This document shows positions 1-54,306 of a stretch of DNA of 64,000 bases, piece after piece. The stretch's first letter is position 1, and every line of letters starts with the position of its first letter. The stretch is taken from NCBI RefSeq assembly GCF_000315625.1, contig NW_005434657.1, positions 343,934 to 407,933 of the forward strand, in the 5' to 3' direction. The notes beneath the pieces are model-generated. The model saw nothing but the letters and a program-made list of their open reading frames with translations. It did not search any database and had not been told where the DNA came from. This DNA is from Guillardia theta CCMP2712 (Eukaryota; Protista; Cryptophyta). Made by a program: the position numbers and the translations under genes.

Positions 1-147
1 TACATGACGGGCAAGTCGGAGGATCGCCTTCCGACCTCTAGCACCTGCATGAACCTCCTGAAGCTCCCTCTTTACCCGAGCTCCTCCAACCTCCGCGACA
101 AGCTCCTCTATGCCATCACGGCTAACGCCGGGTTCGAACTCTCGTGA
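1..147 (+). CDS. 3' end of HECT E3 ubiquitin ligase (UBE3B/C, UPL6/7-like), partial
   Basis: Frame 1 reads ...[42 protein letters not shown], the HECT C-lobe with the catalytic Cys (LPTSSTC) and terminal GFELS. Confidence 0.93.
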
Positions 148-742
148 GCATGCCATGACTCCGATGAAAGTACTTGGTCTTTCAAGTTAGTTGTACATAC
201 AGCAGTCGCGGTCTAACAGTAACTTGAGTAACTCCGGCCCGTGCGCGATCCGGCATGTTAACATGATGTACGGCTACTATGATGATGGACTACCGACTCC
301 GTGGATCTTGAAGTCTCCTCTTCCTCGGAGTTCATACTGGTTCCACTCATTTACAACAAGTAGAGATGCTGACTGTACAGTAACAAGTCATCACACTCCA
401 TGAGTTGAAAGTTAGAATGATGCGGCACTACAAGGTTGAATTCACTATGGTGCAACCGCCCTGCCGCTATTGTGAGACAATAAAATTGACAAAAACTAAG
501 GAAAGTATGACCTACTTTGATCCTACTGACATTTTATCTTTGTTCATTTTCTGNNNNNNNNNNNNNNNNNNNNNNNNNNNNNNNNNNNNNNNNNNNNNNN
601 NNNNNNNNNNNNNNNNNNNNNNNNNNNNNNNNNNNNNNNNNNNNNNNNNNNNNGTAGCACTTCGCGCCCCGTTGGCTCGAGTCTGAGTTACTAGTTAGCT
701 TCATCTTCTGCAAGCAGACACACTTGGGGACGGACACTTGAA

Positions 743-1705
743 ATGATTCCCTTGAGATATCTGCTTCTTGGCCTGGTTCCCGTCAGGGACGTCAAGTTAC
801 TAGCATCGCGGTCCCACTTGTTTGCCTGGTCAGCTACGAGGATGAGCTTGGGTCCTAGGACCTCACTCAGAGCACTTGACCCAACCTTGTCAGCTACGAG
901 GATGAGCTTGGATCCTAGGACCTCACTCAGAGTACTCCCAACCTTCTCAGCCGCTCGCGGGCGGGCAAGGATCTCAGCCACAAGCTCTTGGAATTCATAT
1001 CTCAATCTGGTGTGCGGGATACTGGGGGTTGATGATGCGGCGAAAACGAGCTTTCATGTGTATTTTGTTGCACTGGAGCTGCACAAAAAGGACTTGGAAA
1101 AGGAGCTGGGGCTGCAGAATGAAATGGAGGACAAGATGCAGAGGAATCAAAAGTACCTTGCCCATTACTACAAGCGTGAAATATCCACCTTCACTCAAAG
1201 GTGTGCGTCTTGATTGAGATCTGCAGAATGATATTGATAACGCAGATGCGTCCTTGAGGAGCTGTTCAGGGAAGTAGTGTGCATTGTTCAAGATTCCGAG
1301 GATCATGCGCTTCAATCTATGTTGCCGAAGACGGTTCTCAATACGATGCAGAGAGGAGAGATTTCTATGTCTGACGTATTTCGGCTCTTGAACGATCCGG
1401 AACACGCAAGCTTTCGACGGAATGTGTGGAAAACGATCGGGTTACCACAGGACCTTGTGTTACCCCCGTTTGATCCAAGAACGATGATGTATGTGCAGCT
1501 CGCTGAAATGATACGCTGTTCACCAAGAAAGTATGTGTTTCTACATTCAAATGCAGATGACAGAGAGATCAGATTTTTCAGCGAGGTTGCAAAGCGTTTC
1601 GAGAAGAAGGTAGACTATTTCGACCCCGTGTCGGCATTTGCGGGAGAGATGATCCTGGAAGCGGATGATTACTTCCCGCACAACCGAACGAATTTTGAAC
1701 CCTAA
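743..1705 (+). CDS. hypothetical protein (at least 2 exons; 5' end uncertain, next to a gap)
   Basis: ORF 743-1213 joins ORF 1277-1705 in frame through a GT-AG intron at ~1201-1245 (...FTQR|CVLEELFREVVCIVQD...). No recognised domain. Confidence 0.5.
830..945. repeat. 60-bp tandem duplication (~2 copies)
   Basis: tcagctacgaggatgagcttgg(g/a)tcctaggacctcactcagag recurs at a 60-nt offset (SATRMSL.PRTSLR twice in the ORF). Confidence 0.9.
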
Positions 1706-2223
1706 ACCCAGAAGTCCAGGCCATGACTGGGACGGTCGGTTATCGTCTTCCCTTGCCGTGCATCGGGTTGTTCCGAGTCGGCCTTGTGCTCGGAGTCCTA
1801 CCGCAGCAGTGAAGTGCTGCAGGGCCCGGGAGAAAGGCAGGATGTAGACGTCACGGTGTTGTGTGAGGTGTTGGAAGTAAAGAGTTAGTTTTGTTGCTAC
1901 GGAGTCTGAGCATGACTAGCCGACTAGCCGTACCACTGCGGCAGAGTGACTCAGCTTCCGCCGGTAGCATTCAAGTGTCGCGGCCACGATCTACTAAGAT
2001 GATATTCAGGTAGCGGCCCGTCAGCGGTACCGTGCCACTGACGGAACTTGGACACACTGACAAGTGAGAGAAACCCGACGATCGCACCGTGACTGCACTG
2101 CCTGCCGCACAATCATCGGATACAGGGATACCGTACGAATAGACTCGGCGAGTCGGAGAGCTGTCAACTGATAGCTGACTCACAAGGGAATCACATAATG
2201 CCGCAAACCGTGGTGACCGGACG

Positions 2224-4105
2224 ATGGCAGTGAGTGCGAGTTTGGACAAGTCGATCTTCGTGTGGGATCTCTGCAAGCTGAAGATGAAGGCTTGCCTCAC
2301 GGGTCACGTCGGAGGTATCAGGTGCATGGCGATGAGCACCGACGACCAGACGGTTGTTAGCGGGAGCGAAGATCACACGTTGAGGGTGTGGGACCTCAAG
2401 AAGTTGAAGCATAAGGCTTGTCTGACCGGACATGTCAGTGGTATCACTTGCGTTGTGATCAGCAAGGACGGGCAGACAGTCATCAGTGGAAGTGACGATC
2501 GGACACTGAGAATCTGGGATCTTGCGTCGACGCTGCAGAAGGCGTGTCTCACTGGTCATAACGATTGGGTCAGTATCGTCGTCATCAGCAAAGACGGGCA
2601 GACAGCCGTAAGCGGGAGCTGGGACAAGACGATCAAGGTGTGGGACCTCAAGGAGATGAAGGAGAAGGCTTGTCTGACTGGTCACACTTAAGGAATAAGT
2701 AGCCTGGTGATAAGCAAGGACGGGCGGAGAGTTGTGAGCGCAAGCAACGACTACACTCTGAGGGTGTGGGATCTTGCGTCGACGCTGCCACAAGCGTTGT
2801 CATGAGCAAAGACGGGCAGACAGCCGTAAGCGGGAGCTGGGACAAGACGATCAAGGTGTGGGACCTCAAGGAGATGAAGGAGAAGGCTTGTCTGACTGGT
2901 CATGGGGATTGGGTGTGGACGCTCTCCCTCCATTCGCGCAAGAGGACCGTTGGCTCGACGTTACACGTCGCAGCATCGCGAGGGTCCTGGCCTGTCTGCC
3001 AGGCTCTGCTGGAGCTGGGGCAGCAGAACTAGGAGAGCTGCGAGACTCGCTAGGACGGACAGCGGCAGAGGTAGCGCGTGAGAGGCACAATGAAAAGCTT
3101 GCGCAGCAGATCGAAGATTGGATGCGAGAGAAAGTGATCGAGGAGAGAGCGAGAGGTCTGGTAGACCAGTACCGGGCAGCGGACAGCCGAGGGCAGAGGC
3201 TGCTGAGCGTGGAGGAGTACGAGGCGTTGGTGATGCACACGCTGCGGGCGATGGGGGGAGGAGGAGGAGACGAGAGGCTCGACGAGCGGTTCATGTCGGA
3301 CTCGAAGACTCTCGTGTGCGGGGAGTTCAAGCATGCGGCGCGGGGGCTGGAGCAGCTGCTGCAGGTACCGATGAAGGAGGTTTACAGCAAGGTGCAGGAC
3401 GCGATCAAGAACATGCGGCAAGAGGTGGAAGCTCACGGGAGCAAGGAGCTGAGGAGAGACCTGGAGTACGTGCTGTCGGAGGCAGCGAGGGAGGAGGTGA
3501 CGAGCAAGGGCGTTCGGGACCAGGGTCATGAAGGAATGAGGCTCTGCGACTTCCTGTGCCACAAGTCCGCCAGAGTCGCGCGGCTGCGGGAGGAGGAGGT
3601 TGCGGCGCTGCGACTCTACACGCTGCCGAGCTTCCCGCACATCAACGACCCGCTGAGGGACCAGGGGCGGATAGAGAGGAGGGAGCCGCACCCGCTTCCT
3701 CTGATCACCTTCCTCATCGTCGAGGGGCTGAAGAAGCTGCGGGGCGTCGAGACCTCAAACAGTGTCGGGATGGAGTCTCGGGTGCTGTGGCGGGGGATGA
3801 AGAACCTGTCTGTGTCCCACGGGTTTGTGGAGAGAGGAGGGACGGAGCTCGTGCCGATGTCGACTTCGACTGAGCTGCAGGTCGCAGCAGCATACGGGAT
3901 GAGCCGGGAAACGCTGATCTTTCGCTTCAGAACCAAGAACAGCCTGCAGCGTGGTGTGGACGTGTCTTGGCTCTCGGCGTTTCCCAAGGAGGAGGAGGTG
4001 CTGTACCCTCCTCTGACGTACATGCAGCCCACAGGAAGGGAGCAGGAGGTTCAGGTTGGGATCGCGAGGTACAGGATCGTGGAGGTGGAGCCGACGACAG
4101 TCTGA
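2224..4105 (+). pseudogene. WD40-repeat + ankyrin + degenerate EF-hand + NAD:arginine ADP-ribosyltransferase (R-S-E clade); 5' part disrupted
   Basis: About 6 WD40 repeats (GH...SKDG...SGSxDxT..VWD). Lesions: in-frame TAA 2689-2691, ~34-nt deletion frameshift at ~2788, frameshift in the G run 3017-3020 within the ankyrin (LHVAASRG...LLELG / ...DSLGRTA). The ART frame is intact to 4105: LRLYT..FPHINDPLR, LWRG, STS, SAFPKEEEVLYPP. No introns. Confidence 0.82.
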
Positions 4106-4655
4106 GATGCAGCACGAGAGCGACCTGGAAGGAGGAGGAAGGGGATGGGAGGGTGGGGAAGAAGAACGAGGATGGGGAGGAGGAGCTGGTGCAGCACAGC
4201 AGCAATTGTGGGGGAGAGCTGGTGCCATGAAAGAGCACCTGACAAGTTTGTTGCGGGTTGTCATGGCCGGGGAGCGGAATCAGGGGAGGGAGGGAGAACG
4301 GTCGGAAGGAGGAGCTGCAGTCAGGCGGATAGGCAGACATGGGGGAGTTGCAGAGAGGGGAGAAAGGAGCGAGGAGGGGAAGGAGGATAGGAGGATAGGA
4401 GGAGGGCTGGACGAGTCAACTCTTGACGTCATCGGCCCCATCGGGTCAGAATCTGATCTCGCAGCGTCCTCGTATGGCAGCAGAGAAGGGCAGGGGGTAC
4501 CAGCCGCTCAGGACTGAAAGGTGTCAAGGGATGTACTGAAAGGAGGAGGAGGAGGAGGAGGAGGAGGAGGAGGCGGGGGAGGAGGAGGGGGAGGAGGGAG
4601 GGGGAGGAGGAGGAGGAGGAACGAGAGCACGAGCACGAGTACGAGCACAAGGATG

Positions 4656-18401: not shown

Positions 18402-30987
<12,586 letters not shown>

Positions 30988-31121: not shown

Positions 31122-35886
<4,765 letters not shown>

Positions 35887-38701: not shown

Positions 38702-40129
38702 GAGCCTCGCGCTCGTGGCGCGGCGCCGGAATGATACCCGGCCGGGCGATCCGAGACTGGCCGGGCTGCAAGCCGCGGCCGGGGCCGTGCGCCGAGCGGT
38801 TTGGACTCCGAGGCTCCGAGTCAGTGTCCGAGTTCAATGAACTTAAGCCTGCACACCTTGTCATGTCGCACAACCTTTAGCCGCTGCGACTCGCGGCTGG
38901 GCCGCCAATCGAGTCACGGTTCAGCAGCGGCAGACTGCTGCCGTGCCACCCGGCTGGGCGGCGGCCGGGCGGGCCGCGAGTGAACTTGAGTTCAGACTCG
39001 GAGTCACGGAGTCCGGCACGGTCCGTCTGAGTCCGAGCCCGGGCCGGGCCAAAGCCTAGTAGTACCAGGCCCCCGGCACTGAGTACTGAGACTCAGCCTC
39101 ACTGTGACGGCACTGTGAACTGTGAATACTAGTAGCAGCACTGTACCGTAACCTTCGCATATATTGTTTCTTAATACGATCAATGTAGTAAACTTTTGTA
39201 CCTCTATATAGTACAAAAGATAATTATAAGCTTTATCTACTGAAATATTTTGTTTTAATATACAAAACAAACGGCATGGTAATCAATTTGTAAAAAAATA
39301 TTTGTACCTTTCCTTTCCATATTATAACTTGGACCTACAAACCTGTACAGAAAATTAAATTATTGCTTTTTATCTATATTATTTTTATAAGCGCGGATCT
39401 GTCGATGTCATCGGCTGCTGGGATAGTCGAGCTGGCAGGTCTTAATAAGAGATAATTACCTAATTTTCAAATTGAAATAGAAGTTTACCGACAAAAAATG
39501 GAAAATAAATGAAAGATTTCACCTTATATAGAGGAATATGATATTATTGGTGTAGACTAATAACACGTTCAAGGCCAACTTAGGTTAGCCAAGTCGCGTG
39601 AGCGGCAAGCAGCATGTGGAATGGGAGGGGAGGGACAGAGAGGAGGGAACGAGGAGAAGAGAGCCGGGTGCGTGAGGAGAAATGGTTTGAGGATCCAAAT
39701 CTGCCAACATGTATGTAGCATCGCTCCCTGCGAGCAATGGCGTTAGAGGTTCATGGAAGCATGGTGTTCGAATGTAGCCATCTCAGTTGGACAGTGGGGG
39801 GAGAATGGTCATGGCTAGAATTGAAGGTGGTTGGGAAGAGGTATGTGTCCATGCAGAATTAAGATGGAAAGATGAAGCAATTGGGGGTAGATTCAAGAGT
39901 GCATGCAGCTTGTCTTGAGAACAGGATTAATATCATTGTTTGAGAATGGCGATTTGCTTTCATATTTTCTGATCCCTGAATCATCTCTTGCTGGCTTTGG
40001 GGAACTCACGACCATATCTTGTTTCAGGTCATATTTTCACGCCTTGTGGCCAAGGTTGATGTTCTGATCGGGATTGGCACGTGATCCCTGGACCAGAAAC
40101 TTCCTTATCCACTGCATATCCCTACCAAG

Positions 40130-42985
40130 ATGGCGATGGCTATGGAAAAGCAGTGTACCTTTCTTATCTTCGATGACAGTGTTCAACGAGCTGAAGTAGA
40201 TGAGCTCAAAGCGGGGCTGGAAAACAGCGATGTAAGTGTCAAGGTTGCAACCATGAAGAAGATTGTGCTTCTGATGATGAACGGGGAGCAACTCGGCGAC
40301 CTTCTCATGGACGTGATCAAGTTTGTGGTTCCCAATGAAGACAAGGGACTCAAGAAGCTCCTCTACCTGTACCTCGAAGCCGTGGAAAAGAGAGGAAGAG
40401 ACGGAAATCTGCTCCTGCCGATGATTTTGATTTGTAACATGATCCGCAATGATTTGAATCATCCCAATGAGTTTGTGAGGGGCTCTGCGTTGCGCTTCTT
40501 GAGCAAAATCCGCGAAAAGGATATTCTTGAGCCGCTAGTTTCATCTTTGAGAGCGAATCTCGAGCATCGCCATAGCTATGTTCGAAGGAATGCTGTTCTT
40601 GCCATCTACAACACCTACAAGTGCTTTGAAGATTTGATGCCTGACGCACCAGAACTCATCGGTGAATTTATTGACGGGGAGAACGATGTGTCTGCGAAAA
40701 GGAATGCTTTTGTTATGCTTTGCAACTGCGACCAAGAAAGGGCGGTACAATATCAGCTGGGCGTCATCGACACCATTAACTCCATGGGCGATATTGTGCA
40801 GCTCGTGATGTTGGAACTTATTCGCAAAGTTTGCCGTCAGGATCCCTTCCAGAAGAGCAAGTATGTCCGTGCAGTCTTCAACCTCCAGAGCTCTGCTTCG
40901 AATTCTGTGGCCTTTGAATGTGCTTCCACTCTCGTTTCTCTCTCGAGTGCCCAAACCGCCGTGAGAACCGCCGTGCAGGCATACTGTAACTTGCTCAGCA
41001 CTCACAGCGACAACAACGTCAAGCTCATTGTTCTCGATAAGTTGAAAGATCTTCAACAAAAGCATCCCGAAGTATTGAAGACGCTCATCATGGATATTAT
41101 TCGTGGACTTGCTTCGCCCAACATCGACATCCGCAAGAAGGTCTTGGATTTGGTGATGGAGCTCGTGAGCCCTAGCAGCATCGACGAAGTTATTGCTGTT
41201 CTCAAGAAGGAGATTGCCAAAACTCAGCACACAGACACGGAGAAAGCACCTGAATACCGTCAAATGCTGATTCAGGCAATCCACAACTGCGTGATCAAGT
41301 TCCCAGAAATCGCTGGAAATGTTGTTCATGTCCTTATCGATTTCTTGGACGACTCGAATGCTACTTCGGCGTCTGATGTGGTTCTGTTCATGCGAGAAGT
41401 GGTTGAGACATACCCCAAACTTCGTGAGCTGGTTGTCCATAAGCTTGTGGAATACTTCCCAACTATGAAGGTTGCTAAGGTCTATCGCGTTGCTCTGTGG
41501 ATTCTTTCCGAATATTGCCGAACGGAAGCGGAGATCAAAGCAGCTTACGATGTCGTGAAACAGTCCATTGGTAGTGTCCCTTTCATCGACGAGAACACTC
41601 TCGAGGCGGCTATCAACACAGCGGCTGCTGAACACAAGCACACTTCTCCTGCTGTGCTTGCGGATGGAACATATGCCTCACAGTCGGGCATCGGAGCGAA
41701 TCTTCAGATCGGCAAGGACGAACCCCCATCGTTGCGCAACTTGCTGATCGGAGGAGACTTCTATGTTGCTGCCGTTACAGCGTCTTCACTCGCCAAGCTC
41801 ATCATGCGGATCTCGTCCTTGTCAGGAACATCTGGGGAACTAGTGAACCAGTGGAGCGCTGAAGTCATCGCCATCATCTGCAGCATTGTGAAGCTGGGCA
41901 ACTACGGTATCACCCCGAACAAGATGGATGATGACTGCACCGAACGCTTGTGGTTGTGCCTGATGATGCTGAGCGACCCCTACAACAAGCAGATGCAGGA
42001 GATTTGGAACGAGAAGTGCAGGAACTCCTACTCTCAGCTCCTGGTTGAAAAGCAGAAGGTGTTGACAGAGGAGCAGCAGGAATCGAAGGAGGAGGCCAAG
42101 AAGTTCAAAGCGCATGCGGATGATCTTATTAGCTTCAGGCAGCTTCGGGGTAAAGGAGCAATCATCACGGAGATCGAAGACGAGGATGCGTTGGATCTCT
42201 CCAGAGCAACGGGCGCTGCCGAGGAAGAGGACTTTGGATCAAGGCTGAAGAGGGTCACGCAGCTCACTGGCCTTTCCGATGCCGTGTATGCAGAGGCTGT
42301 CGTGACTGTGCACGATTATGATATCGTCCTTGACGTCCTGGTCATCAACCAGCTGAACGAACATCTTAACAACCTCTGCCTTGAGCTGTCAACTGTCGGG
42401 GACCTCAAGCTCTGCGAAAGGCCCCAGACTTATGCCCTGGCTCCCCATGCTCAGCTCAACATCAGGGCGAACATCAAGGTTTCCTCCACAGAGACTGGAA
42501 TCATCTATGGAAACATCGTCTACGACCTTGGACAAGGAACTGGAACGGACTCGAACGCCAGGGACGCTCAGAACATGGTCATCTTGAATGACATCCACAT
42601 CGACATCATGGACTACATCACTCCTGCCCACTGCTCCCTCCTGCAGTTTCGGCAGATGTGGGCTGAATTCGAGTGGGAGAACAAGGTGGCGGTCAACACT
42701 TCGATCATTGACCCTGTCAAGTACCTCCGTCACATCGTCTCATGCACCAACATGCAGTGCCTGACACACATCGACGATGATTCTGGGGATTGCGGCTTCT
42801 TGGCGGCTAACCTGTACGCAAAATCTATCTTTGGCGAAGACGCGCTGGTGAACGTTAGCATCGAGAAGCAGAGGGACGGAGCTCTCAGTGGCAACTTGCG
42901 TATCAGGAGCAAGACTCAGGGCATCGCACTCAGCCTCGGGGACAAGATCACTCTCAAGCAGAAGAGCATCGAAACGTCCAAGTGA
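40130..42985 (+). CDS. COPB1: Coatomer subunit beta (beta-COP), single exon
   Basis: Uninterrupted 951-aa ORF: NDLNHPNEFVRGSALRFL, LEHRHSYVRRNA, QLTGLSDAVYAEA, FRQMWAEFEWENKV, RIRSKTQGIALSLGDKI. Confidence 0.98.
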   Translation: MAMAMEKQCTFLIFDDSVQRAEVDELKAGLENSDVSVKVATMKKIVLLMMNGEQLGDLLMDVIKFVVPNEDKGLKKLLYLYLEAVEKRGRDGNLLLPMILICNMIRNDLNHPNEFVRGSALRFLSKIREKDILEPLVSSLRANLEHRHSYVRRNAVLAIYNTYKCFEDLMPDAPELIGEFIDGENDVSAKRNAFVMLCNCDQERAVQYQLGVIDTINSMGDIVQLVMLELIRKVCRQDPFQKSKYVRAVFNLQSSASNSVAFECASTLVSLSSAQTAVRTAVQAYCNLLSTHSDNNVKLIVLDKLKDLQQKHPEVLKTLIMDIIRGLASPNIDIRKKVLDLVMELVSPSSIDEVIAVLKKEIAKTQHTDTEKAPEYRQMLIQAIHNCVIKFPEIAGNVVHVLIDFLDDSNATSASDVVLFMREVVETYPKLRELVVHKLVEYFPTMKVAKVYRVALWILSEYCRTEAEIKAAYDVVKQSIGSVPFIDENTLEAAINTAAAEHKHTSPAVLADGTYASQSGIGANLQIGKDEPPSLRNLLIGGDFYVAAVTASSLAKLIMRISSLSGTSGELVNQWSAEVIAIICSIVKLGNYGITPNKMDDDCTERLWLCLMMLSDPYNKQMQEIWNEKCRNSYSQLLVEKQKVLTEEQQESKEEAKKFKAHADDLISFRQLRGKGAIITEIEDEDALDLSRATGAAEEEDFGSRLKRVTQLTGLSDAVYAEAVVTVHDYDIVLDVLVINQLNEHLNNLCLELSTVGDLKLCERPQTYALAPHAQLNIRANIKVSSTETGIIYGNIVYDLGQGTGTDSNARDAQNMVILNDIHIDIMDYITPAHCSLLQFRQMWAEFEWENKVAVNTSIIDPVKYLRHIVSCTNMQCLTHIDDDSGDCGFLAANLYAKSIFGEDALVNVSIEKQRDGALSGNLRIRSKTQGIALSLGDKITLKQKSIETSK

Positions 42986-51095: not shown

Positions 51096-52685
51096 TCAGC
51101 ACGCGGCATCCCAGGTGTACAAACCTGACCAATGATCGACGACATGCACACGACGTCCATTCTTCTGGACCCTCGCCGTTTGATTCAAAAGAGTCGTTTC
51201 AGCAAGTTTGATCACGATCTGATGATCCAGCAAGGTGCGAAAACGTGTCAGCAGCACAACACAAAGGTCGTGAGAGGTTCAGACAACAGTAAAGACACAA
51301 CGAGGGAAACGTGTAACCAGGAGTACAAACACAGTCAGACAAACGGGTGAAAAGCAGCTCAAGGCAAGAAGAGCCCTTTTCAAGACAACATCGCTGCTAC
51401 TTCCAACCTCCTCAACCCCCTCAGCCTGCCCCTCCTCTCACCTGCGCGCATTTCTGCGTGTCGTACATCCCCAAGTGATGCCAATGCATACTCTCAGCCG
51501 TCGACCCGATCTGCCCAGACCATTCAGCCGGACGCTGACCCCAGCAGGCACGAGACAGTCTACCTGAAGGAAGTTCGCAAGCCTGTTGAGCCCATCGACC
51601 TTCTGTGCAAGCATCTGCACGTTGGCGGTGGGATCCTGCAGCATGAAGTAGTTGAGGGACAAATCCTTCACGTTGAGCCAGGAGCGCAGGAAGTAAGGGA
51701 GGATAAGTTCGTGCTTTGTACAATTCCTCTTCATCAATGAGGCGTCGTGATCGCCGCAGAAGGCAACGATTCCCTTATTGCGGCCGAAGGTCACGCCATG
51801 GCCAGTCAGGAAGTTGTTGAACTCGACCAAGGCTTCAGAGAAGCTCACAGCGTTGGTAGCAGCGACTTGCGGCGAGAGGTGTTGGAACCTATTCAGGAAG
51901 TGGGTGGGAGTTACCCAGCGATGGAACCGACCGACTTCCCTACCCTCCTTGACATCGAGCACGATACAAGGCATCTCGATGAGCTCGCCCCTCGAACCTC
52001 CCTCCAAGTCCATCACGGCTACAAACCGGTAGTCCTGCTGTACCGGACGGAAATCTGGCATCCGCATGTTCAACCATTCGTCCGCCACCTTCTGTGCGAA
52101 CTCGTTGTCGTGCACCTTGGTCACGTACTCCCTGTTGAGCCTGTTACCGACGTACTCGATGCATTCCTCTCCGTTCAGGTGACTGAGGCATACTCCCGAA
52201 GATGCGTAGTACTTGCAAGGGATGTTGGACCCGACTTGGACCCCCTTATCTATGAACTCATTGAAATTCATGTCCTTCCTCCTCAACATGACCTTCCCGT
52301 CCTCCTCCATGATCTCGACCTCCGAATCCTTCAGCGCTTCGATCGTCTCCTGGGGGTTTGCGCCAAGGAGCTTCATCCTGTTGAAGGTCATGATGACGTC
52401 AAGGGGCACCCAACCTTGCGGGTGCTCGGCTGCCTTGTTCTGCAGGAAGATGTCTCTGCTGATGTTCCTCGGCGAGAAGTAGTACTCCACTTGTTTCTTG
52501 ATTTGCGACGCTGTTGGAGGAGAGCTTGCTTCGTGCCGCATGCCCATGGAGTTGTCGCCCTGCGGCATGGAGAAGCTTCGGGACAAAGCCTTGAAGCCAT
52601 GCTGCGAGATACCGTAGCTGACCCGCGAGGATACAGTGTTGATCCTGCCATAGCGAAGGCGAGGCAAGACCCTAGCCACTATCAT
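51096..52685 (-). CDS. La-motif (LaM) + Cys-rich linker + ERI1-like DEDDh 3'-5' exonuclease, with an N-terminal transit-peptide-like sequence
   Basis: QIKKQVEYYFSPRNISRDIFL..GWVPLDVIMTFNRMK (LaM); VAVMDLEG..ELIEMPC..FHRWVTP (ExoI); FCGDHD (ExoII); spliced HHLGMYDT (ExoIII). Confidence 0.85.
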
Positions 52686-54306
52686 CCTGCAACCTTCAAA
52701 AGGAGTTCAGTCAAGGAATGCGAACAAACAGTCAAGATGGATAAGTTATGGCGCCGCCAGCATGCCAACTGCACTCTACCTCAAGGAGATTCTAGCATGT
52801 CCTCCAATCTCATGCATCCTCTCTCGTTGACCTCCAAGATCCCCCTGCTCCCTTTGAGGAACTGAGGACCCTCGGGGATCTCCTGGAATCACAAGCCCTG
52901 CCCATCTGCTCATCCCCGCATCATCCTCCCTCCTCCCTGAAGCCTCTCGTCCCTTCTATCACCCGTCATCTCATCATAGCATACCTCCTCCCCTGCTCTC
53001 CTCCTCCTCCCTCTCTCTCCCTCGCCATTTTCCCCGTATCCTTCCTCGTGCATTCAGCAGCGTAACAAGGTCGTCGTGATGCATACCTGAGGCGTGTCAC
53101 AGACCGGAGCCGCGGGCCGCCGTAGTGATCGGATCATGATGGTGAGGCCGAGACGGTGGCACTCAGTGGACCGTGATCGGACCGCGCCGGCGCGGCCGGG
53201 CCCGGACTCGGCCCGGCTGAACAGTGTGTCCGAAGACTCAGTGCCGACCGTCTCAGCCCCACTAACTTGGGCCGCCTCAGTCAGTGGTCGGGCCCCCGCA
53301 TGATCCCGACTCGGTCCGACGGTGGCCGCAGTGAGCCGCAAGGCCGGGCTGAGCCTGCGACCGTGGCGGCGCGGGGACCGTAAACTGGCATGCCGTCACT
53401 CCTGAGTCCGCCTGATCAACTTTCAAGTATCTGAGATGGCGTGCGGCCGGCAGTCACCCGGTGACCGGGCGCGCTGGCAGTGCGGGGGCGCCGCCCCCGC
53501 GCCGGCTACCCGGTCACTAGCCTGAGTCCGACGCCGGGAGCGGCCCTGCAGCGGAGGCTCGGATTCAACTTACTGATTACCGTTGAAGTACTCCTGAGAG
53601 ACTTCAGTGTGGCGAGGCGGCAATGATCGGACAACTTTCAGTACCGTACCGTAGCACCTTTCAACGGTCAAGTTCAAAGTTTGACGAAGCCTTCCGACCT
53701 TCCTGGCCCGGTGCTGGACTCCCGGACTCCTTTCAATGGCAAGTTCCACATCTTAGCATACAGTCTATCTCTCCGAGGCATGTACTCCTCAACCCCTGTT
53801 TCGTGTGCATTAAACTTGATCTTGAGCAAAAACTGTCTTGTTGCAGCTGAGGTGAACTGATGTCTGCATTACTAAGTTTGGCATAATACAAGTCTAACAA
53901 ACTTGAAACTTGTACTCCCGACGGTCCGAAGTACTACGGCCGCGTCACATCCTGACCGACGCTCCGGTTGCAGTGAACGCGGAACTGCCCGTGAACCCGG
54001 TTCGAAACTGAGACGGTTCCGACTCATCATGATTCGAAGCCTTTGCCTACTAGTTTACAATCACGTTCATTCCAAACAACGTGGCTTAAGGCTGACGCCT
54101 TAGACTGAGCGACATCGTACTCGGTCAGTGCTCGGATTAGGCTGACTCGCATTCAATCCCGAATAGACGGTAACTAGTAAGGGCCTCCTCTTCATCGCCA
54201 TCATCCTCAACGTGGCATACCCCACACACTGCGTCAGCGCCTCAGGCCTTGGCGTACGGTATCCTCCGCCTCTTGCTTGCGGCTGCTCACCCCAGCATCT
54301 TCTCAC

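What the first reader, a model, noticed from the sequence alone, without database searches (positions are those of the whole stretch)
2224..4105. WD40-ankyrin-EF-hand-ADP-ribosyltransferase: a sensor-plus-toxin architecture in an alga
Seen: repairing three lesions gives one intronless protein, WD40 x~6 / ankyrin / degenerate EF-hand (AADSRGQRLLSVEEY) / ART with LWRG, STS and ExE (KEEE) motifs. Known: R-S-ExE marks arginine-specific ARTs (VIP2/C2-type toxins, vertebrate ARTCs), typical conflict and immune effectors. Inference: a family of intracellular receptor-effector proteins in which repeat domains recognise a target and the ART modifies it or kills the cell, possibly as antiviral defence.
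Basis: partly seen in the sequence, partly recalled or inferred. Interest (0 to 1): 0.8.

Follow-up and report, generated by a model that had tools for sequence, protein, structure and literature searches.

The report
Algal modular arginine ADP-ribosyltransferase, broken copy
This is a damaged copy of an algal gene that joins protein-binding repeats to an enzyme domain of the kind bacterial toxins use to tag proteins with ADP-ribose; it belongs to a very large algal family with swappable front ends that likely acts inside the cell as a targeted signalling or defence switch, though no activity or target has been tested.

Summary
Six WD40 units (one partial, one cut short), one ankyrin unit and an R-S-ExE ADP-ribosyltransferase (ART) lie in order at 2200-4105, with three breaks. 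The ART passes Pfam's cut-off and its model matches rat ART2.2 (Z 18.3). The EF-hand is unproven. The fusion is no accident: WD40-ankyrin-ART proteins occur in Hanusia phi and in a metagenome, and a contig from a freshwater metagenome (about 95% alike) joins the repeats to the ART in one frame. One break is likely a sequencing error; two look real, so this copy is probably a pseudogene. The ART belongs to a large algal family (430 clusters at E<=1e-30) that keeps the catalytic residues in 98-99% of aligned members, sits at the C-terminus, and is fused to ankyrin, WD40, LRR, kinase, PH, FHA, ion-channel and receptor-like membrane modules. Best reading: an intracellular, repeat-targeted arginine ADP-ribosylation system; a defence role is plausible, but nothing here shows killing or an antiviral role. 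Databases already auto-label some members; ten literature searches found no description of the family, but one key review was not available.

The parts
2200..2691 (+). WD40 units 1-4 (unit 1 partial; ATG at 2224 lies inside it); frame ends at TAA 2689-2691
   Evidence: Pfam PF00400 E 8.8e-35; 126-nt period; unit translations
2689..2691 (+). Break 1: in-frame stop in WD40 unit 4
   Evidence: X1 contig 2655-2834 at depth 60 matches with no other letters
2704..2794 (+). WD40 unit 5, 34 nt shorter than the others (break 2, frame change)
   Evidence: same X1 contig
2795..2945 (+). WD40 unit 6 and the closing strand; 2805-2902 is a 98-nt exact copy of 2587-2684
2952..3121 (+). Ankyrin unit, split by break 3 (frame change at 3021, likely a sequencing error)
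   Evidence: Pfam Ank E 0.13-0.21; match to P0185/P0190 on both sides of the break; X1 and X6 carry one more base here, X2 does not
3176..3220 (+). Loop of a helix-loop-helix linker with a faint EF-hand likeness; calcium binding unlikely
3287..4105 (+). ART domain: helical subdomain plus catalytic core; R 3791-3793, S 3860-3862, E 3989-3991 and E 3995-3997; stop 4103-4105
   Evidence: Pfam PF01129 and PF03496; family conservation; model pLDDT 94.8; Z 18.3 to ART2.2; coordinates

Best explanation
The locus is a likely pseudogenised copy of a cryptophyte gene whose intact form would encode a cytosolic enzyme predicted to bind a partner through WD40 and ankyrin repeats and to transfer one ADP-ribose from NAD+ onto an arginine of a nearby protein. 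Shown: the domain order, the ART fold, the intact catalytic motif, the family and its varied N-terminal partners, and the breaks. Inferred from known enzymes: NAD+ use and arginine preference (R-S-ExE). Inferred from architecture: the repeats choose the target or switch the enzyme on, and the family turns over by domain shuffling, repeat-number change and gene death, as stress or non-self response families do. The purpose I think most likely is a response to biotic threat by modifying one of the alga's own or an invader's proteins; this last step is untested.
For: ART above Pfam cut-off; best structural match ART2.2, Z 18.3, rmsd 3.0 over 206 residues, then HopU1 15.5, XopAI 14.5, ExoS 13.7. 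R, S, E, E kept in 99% of 180, 98% of 174, 98% of 172 and 99% of 171 aligned relatives. R-S-EXE defines arginine specificity (PMC3102197, passages). WD40-ankyrin-ART relatives: P0005 (complete triad), H. phi P0185 and P0190; the window's ART groups with G. theta and H. phi proteins at 100/99. One X6 contig runs from WD40 through the ankyrin to 3232 in one frame, and none of the listed X6 differences makes a stop (classified by hand). ART within 15 aa of the C-terminus in 236 of 245 proteins that reach the profile end. No hydrophobic 21-mer in the three window pieces. Against X6, listed differences are 11-12 amino-acid-changing to 8-9 silent in the ART core (ratio per site 0.41-0.51) but 11-12 to 1-2 in WD40 units 1-3 (ratio 1.5-3.3). 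Repeat number differs among the window (6), X6 (4) and P0185 (3 WD dipeptides).
Against: No activity, target or phenotype was tested. The WD40 versus ART difference is weak (Fisher p 0.05-0.25; WD40 alone is compatible with neutral drift, p 0.19-0.44) and rests on one relative and on 13 of 16 and 20 of 21 differences listed. WD40 units are only 33-71% identical apart from the 4/6 pair (83%), below the 85% criterion for fungal NLR sensor repeats (PMC4986451, passages). No NOD domain. No window, X6 or relative sequence seen here has the seven repeats of a full propeller. P0185 and P0190 stop before the catalytic glutamates, and the X6 contigs leave a gap in the ART (about 3490-3595), so only P0005 shows the whole architecture in one frame, and its ART does not group with the window's clade. 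Kinase, PH, FHA, channel and receptor-like partners fit ordinary signalling equally well.
Confidence: 0.5

Rival explanations
1. The family is a general signalling layer, like protein kinases: ART domains on receptors, channels and adaptors write a reversible arginine mark in normal physiology, with no special link to defence.
For: 38 of 135 relatives with a long N-terminal part have a predicted membrane segment; partners include LRR, ephrin-like, ricin-lectin, MAM, ion channel, TRP, kinase, PH, FHA, WWE, Ras, EF-hand, ARM. PMC3417536 (passages) says eukaryotes reused toxin-derived ARTs for post-translational coding.
Against: Broken and repeat-variable copies, species-level paralogue clades and 2410 clusters at 50% identity suggest rapid birth and death rather than a conserved pathway; this is indirect.
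Confidence: 0.27
2. The domain works mainly as an NAD+ hydrolase or modifies a nucleic acid or small molecule, draining NAD+ or making a signal when the repeats bind a trigger.
For: The closest fold, rat ART2, is an NAD hydrolase in its QXE form, and related ARTs modify DNA (PMC3102197, passages); R-S-E clade enzymes include NADases (PMC9503650, passages).
Against: The first glutamate of ExE, which that paper ties to arginine transfer, is kept in 98% of 172 relatives.
Confidence: 0.12
3. This copy is alive: the 218 nt that hold both real breaks are spliced out as an intron (a GT..AG cut exists at 2638-2855), or the ART is made alone from a downstream start.
For: Both real breaks lie inside that segment; X6 lacks a net 218 nt there and one X2 contig skips it; the 447-codon ART frame is open.
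Against: Such a cut arises by chance in 45% of shuffled 98-mers; the acceptor would be AAG with a purine-rich run before it; the X2 skip can be a contig collapse across the 98-nt exact repeat.
Confidence: 0.12
4. The protein is an exported toxin aimed at grazers, prey or competitors.
For: Fold shared with injected bacterial effectors.
Against: No membrane or hydrophobic leader segment in the window pieces; no delivery domain among the Pfam partners seen; WD40 and ankyrin are cytosolic modules (general knowledge). The true N-terminus is not known.
Confidence: 0.05

Closest known systems
Vertebrate ecto-ARTs (ARTC2/ART2.2; Pfam PF01129)
   Same: Best structural match (Z 18.3, 206 aligned), including the helical subdomain; R-S-ExE motif.
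   Different: 17% identity. Vertebrate ARTCs are GPI-anchored or secreted single-domain enzymes (PMC3102197, PMC7955679, passages); this family is multidomain with a C-terminal ART and, in this copy, no membrane segment.
Bacterial single-domain R-S-ExE effectors HopU1, XopAI, ExoS/ExoT, the 6DRE/6DRH toxin, Vis
   Same: Same fold (Z 12.7-15.5) and weak profile similarity (E 5e-6 to 7e-3).
   Different: 16-23% identity; these are injected by secretion systems; no close relative was found in prokaryotic genomes by the pattern scan.
VIP2/C2-I/iota-type binary toxin A components
   Same: Catalytic core and ExE motif (Foldseek rank 1; Z about 12). Tandem ART domains occur in 17 of 269 relatives.
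   Different: Weaker by Z than ART2.2; the window copy has one ART domain; no binding component.
Fungal NLRs with WD40/ANK sensor repeats (HET-E type)
   Same: Repeat module plus enzymatic effector; repeat-number variation, near-identical repeat pairs and strain-dependent pseudogenes (PMC4986451, PMC13449251, passages).
   Different: No NACHT/NB-ARC domain; effector is C-terminal; repeats mostly below 85% identity.
Auto-annotated algal 'NAD(P)(+)--arginine ADP-ribosyltransferase' entries (G. theta GUITHDRAFT_139050 and _67237, Hemiselmis, Haptolina, Chaetoceros)
   Same: Same family: 60% and 70% identity to the G. theta proteins.
   Different: These are automatic names with no experiment that I found; they do not describe the modular repertoire.

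Membership tests
ARTC / R-S-E clade ADP-ribosyltransferase | Split beta-sheet ART fold | tested here: met
ARTC / R-S-E clade ADP-ribosyltransferase | Arg on strand 1, Ser on strand 2, Glu on strand 5 | tested here: met
Arginine-specific ARTC | Glu two residues before the catalytic Glu (ExE) | tested here: met
   E290 and E292 of the 327-aa piece; 98% and 99% in relatives
Arginine-specific ARTC | Measured transfer of ADP-ribose to arginine | not testable with these tools
   needs an assay
Vertebrate ecto-ART | Signal peptide and GPI anchor or secretion | tested here: not met
   no hydrophobic 21-mer in the three pieces by a simple hydropathy scan; ART ends at the stop; true N-terminus unknown
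Binary or injected bacterial ART toxin | Delivery component or secretion system, prokaryotic context | tested here: not met
   neighbours are eukaryotic genes such as coatomer beta; nearest relatives are cryptophyte proteins
NLR / HET-E-like receptor | Central NACHT or NB-ARC domain | tested here: not met
   none in the window pieces or in P0185, P0190
NLR / HET-E-like receptor | High internal conservation of repeats (85% over 100 aa) | tested here: not met
   33-83% between units; criterion from PMC4986451
NLR / HET-E-like receptor | Diversifying selection on the repeats | tested here: inconclusive
   excess of amino-acid changes against one relative, not significant
EF-hand | Profile match and calcium-ligand residues in a 12-residue loop | tested here: inconclusive
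   no Pfam hit for the window; 1 of 14 members hits EF-hand_9 at E 0.096; 5 of 11 weak PDB hits are EF-hand proteins by name (family assignment recalled); loop positions 3 and 5 are Arg and Gln (pattern recalled); structure search gave only generic helical pairs
WD40 propeller | WD40 repeats | tested here: met
WD40 propeller | Enough repeats (usually seven) to close a propeller | tested here: inconclusive
   six units here, four in X6; 5' end unsettled
Antiviral or cell-death effector | Induction or protection on infection; cell death on activation | not testable with these tools
   no data

The most novel reading that the evidence does not exclude
Cryptophytes, haptophytes and diatoms run a large, undescribed receptor-and-effector repertoire built on cytosolic arginine ADP-ribosyltransferases: LRR-, lectin- and ephrin-like membrane receptors, channels and cytosolic WD40/ankyrin sensors all end in the same ART domain in place of a kinase or TIR domain, and serve as an innate immune system of major phytoplankton, the repeats evolving fast to track pathogens.
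Probability: 0.3. Interest if true: 0.85.

Novelty: new variant of a known kind. Interest (0 to 1): 0.58.

Why it matters
A 2010 review states that arginine-specific ARTs seem to be lacking in unicellular eukaryotes and that no intracellular one had been characterised (PMC3102197, passages). This family has the full motif, is probably cytosolic, and is large in globally important algae. If active it supplies a missing class of eukaryotic enzyme, and its fusion partners point to either an immune or a kinase-like signalling system in phytoplankton. Intact members in cultured species (G. theta GUITHDRAFT_139050) make a test easy. The window's own copy matters less, being probably dead.

Tried and rejected
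Paralogue count in the same genome: no whole genome is held; the window itself has one ART; short, deeper X1 contigs with other letters at 2860-2893 and 3036-3087 hint at related modules elsewhere. Single-sequence search of solved structures gave 2 chance hits. Pattern scans found no relative among 57 candidate stretches in viral contigs or 33 in prokaryotic genomes; tblastn against phages found none; viral structure matches were distant, 11-19% identity. These searches are insensitive to distant kin. PADLOC and NCBIfam gave nothing for the ART above noise. The WD40 search was crowded by long many-repeat proteins; 0 of the 120 listed carry this ART, so it says little. Expression: no RNA holder listed; RNA run X11, about 6% read, gave 3 reads at 90-95% on 1900-4400 and 0 on 3430-4130, which is no test because the organism was not shown in that run; X7 and X8 had small shares. 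ESM Atlas hits scored under 0.9 (ART clusters, mostly haptophyte): a lead only. EF-hand absent from the structure lists: not an exclusion. Three look-ups of earlier findings returned nothing. Alignment A4 was not used. Rejected: chance juxtaposition (relatives share the junction); a purely artefactual broken state (X1 supports 2655-2834 at flank-level depth, though X1 may be the source of this DNA).

Full report
What is in the sequence. The + strand at 2200-4105 carries, in order, six WD40 units on a 126-nt period, an ankyrin unit, a helical linker and an ADP-ribosyltransferase (ART) domain. Pfam gives WD40 at E 9e-35 and ART (PF01129) at 35 bits against a cut-off of 22.3. The coding path is broken three times: a TAA at 2689-2691, a fifth repeat 34 nt short near 2794, and a frame change at 3021. 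The ATG at 2224 lies inside the first repeat, and the extra N-terminal 85 residues of a Hanusia phi relative have no match upstream, so the true start is open.

Which breaks are real. Three DNA runs cover the locus. X1 (depth 46; it may be the source of this DNA) and X6 (a freshwater metagenome, about 95% alike) each carry one more base at 3021; X2 (depth 4) agrees with the window. That break is likely a sequencing error, or else a strain difference. X1 has a contig for 2655-2834 at depth 60 with no other letters, like its flanks (64 and 46), so the stop and the short repeat look real. One X6 contig runs from 2245 to 3232, lacks a net 218 nt and stays in frame; none of the listed X6 differences makes a stop (classified by hand; not all differences were listed). 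X6 does not span the whole gene. A GT..AG cut at 2638-2855 would remove both real breaks, but such a cut appears in 45% of shuffled 98-mers and the acceptor is poor. The copy also lacks about 100 residues of ankyrin repeats present in H. phi P0185 and P0190. I read it as a probable pseudogene.

The enzyme domain. A model from a 62-sequence alignment has mean pLDDT 94.8. Against 48,161 solved chains the best match is rat ART2.2 (Z 18.3, rmsd 3.0, 206 aligned), then HopU1, XopAI, the 6DRH toxin and ExoS (Z 13.7-15.5); VIP2 and C2-I score about 12. Foldseek ranks VIP2 first among near-ties. The catalytic Arg, Ser and two Glu are present and are kept in 99% of 180, 98% of 174, 98% of 172 and 99% of 171 aligned relatives. 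PMC3102197 (passages) ties R-S-EXE to arginine transfer, says such enzymes seem to be lacking in unicellular eukaryotes, and says no intracellular one had been characterised as of 2010.

The EF-hand. The window's segment has no Pfam hit at E<=10; 1 of 14 aligned segments hits EF-hand_9 at E 0.096. A profile of these segments weakly finds calerythrin (E 0.018) and calbindin. The segment is not conserved across the family and its model matches only generic helical pairs. An EF-hand ancestry is possible; calcium binding is unlikely, as two ligand positions are Arg and Gln (pattern recalled).

The family. A full scan of 1.84 billion representatives found 2410 clusters at E<=0.001, 1287 at 1e-10 and 430 at 1e-30 (the looser counts may include distant ARTs). 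478 of 590 pattern hits in metagenome contigs were confirmed. Named members come from cryptophytes (Guillardia theta, H. phi, Teleaulax, Hemiselmis), haptophytes (Chrysochromulina, Haptolina) and a diatom (Chaetoceros). The nearest are G. theta proteins at 60% and 70% and H. phi proteins at 50% and 63%; in a tree of 53 selected rows the window groups with the G. theta pair and P0185 at 100/99. This places the window in or near that cryptophyte group. The ART lies within 15 residues of the C-terminus in 236 of 245 proteins that reach the profile end; 38 of 135 with a long N-terminal part have a predicted membrane segment; 17 of 269 have two ART cores. Pfam scans of 32, 85 and 30 (partly repeats) proteins and 45 of 80 loci show ankyrin, WD40, LRR, ARM, ephrin-like, ricin, MAM, kinase, PH, FHA, WWE, MORN-UBA, Ras, thioredoxin, EF-hand, COR and channel partners; many have no recognised partner. 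WD40-ankyrin-ART was seen three times: P0005 (complete catalytic motif, but its ART falls outside the window's clade) and H. phi P0185 and P0190 (both end before the ExE). The junction between WD40 and ankyrin is 67% identical to P0185, so the juxtaposition is not chance.

Selection. Against X6, the ART core (3605-4102) shows 11-12 amino-acid-changing and 8-9 silent differences (0.41-0.51 per-site ratio; binomial p 0.04-0.11), and WD40 units 1-3 show 11-12 and 1-2 (ratio 1.5-3.3; not distinguishable from neutral). The contrast has Fisher p 0.05-0.25. This fits a conserved enzyme with fast-changing repeats but is weak, from one pair, and relaxed constraint in a pseudogene would blur it.

How it most likely works. 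An intact member would sit in the cytosol, bind a partner through WD40 and ankyrin surfaces, and ADP-ribosylate an arginine on it or a neighbour using NAD+. The chemistry is inferred from motif and fold; targeting by the repeats is inferred from architecture; a role in response to biotic threat is inferred from turnover, shuffling and decay and is untested (overall 0.5). General signalling is the main rival (0.27). It works like a sensor-effector fusion, but it is not an NLR: no NOD domain, and repeat identity of 33-83% is below the 85% criterion in PMC4986451 (passages). PMC13449251 (passages) describes strain-dependent pseudogenes among fungal NLRs, a parallel only. Nothing ties it to viruses.

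What is known. UniRef already names several members 'NAD(P)(+)--arginine ADP-ribosyltransferase'. Ten literature searches gave no listing that describes this algal family. I read passages, not whole texts, of PMC9503650, PMC3102197, PMC7955679, PMC3482391, PMC12340436, PMC3417536, PMC8120803, PMC4986451 and PMC13449251; PMC3417536 notes eukaryotic mono-ARTs nested among bacterial toxin ARTs without naming these algae in the passages seen. No supplements were read, and they could list such proteins. The 2015 review of ART natural history by Aravind and colleagues was not held and may mention the family (recalled). The library lacks most subscription papers.

Verdict. A real domain fusion and a real, large, modular algal family of probable cytosolic arginine ARTs; this copy is probably dead; EF-hand unproven; defence role plausible but unshown. 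New variant of a known kind; interest 0.58.

Noticed in passing
proteins P0052, P0145, P0092, P0111, P0013, P0017, P0096, P0254, P0076: Receptor-like members: LRR, ephrin-like, MAM, ricin-lectin or NHL-type domains, then a predicted membrane segment, then the ART, a layout like receptor kinases with an ART in place of the kinase.
   Followed up: partly
P0110; L033:694-4593; L062:2-3880; L037:1-3909: Ion-channel (Ion_trans) and TRP-family proteins carrying the ART at their C-terminus.
   Followed up: no
P0007, P0008, P0009, P0037, P0046, P0047 and others: 17 of 269 relatives have two ART cores in tandem; several keep catalytic motifs in both.
   Followed up: partly
L049:3-1940; P0165; P0060; P0030: ART fused to COR, A20 zinc finger, WWE-FHA and MORN-UBA domains, which link to Roco proteins, ubiquitin and ADP-ribose reading.
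   Followed up: no
window 3203-3316: Run X6 holds two versions of this stretch, one identical to the window (depth 3.9) and one with 7 other letters (depth 10.5).
   Followed up: no
window 28114-30987 (+): 957-codon open frame with LRR_6 repeats (E 6e-33); N-terminal part unassigned.
   Followed up: no
window 40085-42985 (+): Coatomer beta subunit in one uninterrupted 966-codon frame.
   Followed up: no
window 31890-33617 (-): Open frame with a PTEN C2 domain and a cyclic-nucleotide-binding domain.
   Followed up: no
window 51438-52706 (-): La domain plus RNase T-type exonuclease.
   Followed up: no
window 695-1705 (+): Two frames without Pfam hits upstream of the locus, with a near-exact direct repeat of about 60 nt at roughly 830-935 (seen).
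   Followed up: no
window 1-147 (+): Looks like the C-terminal end of a HECT ubiquitin ligase (motif recalled, not tested).
   Followed up: no
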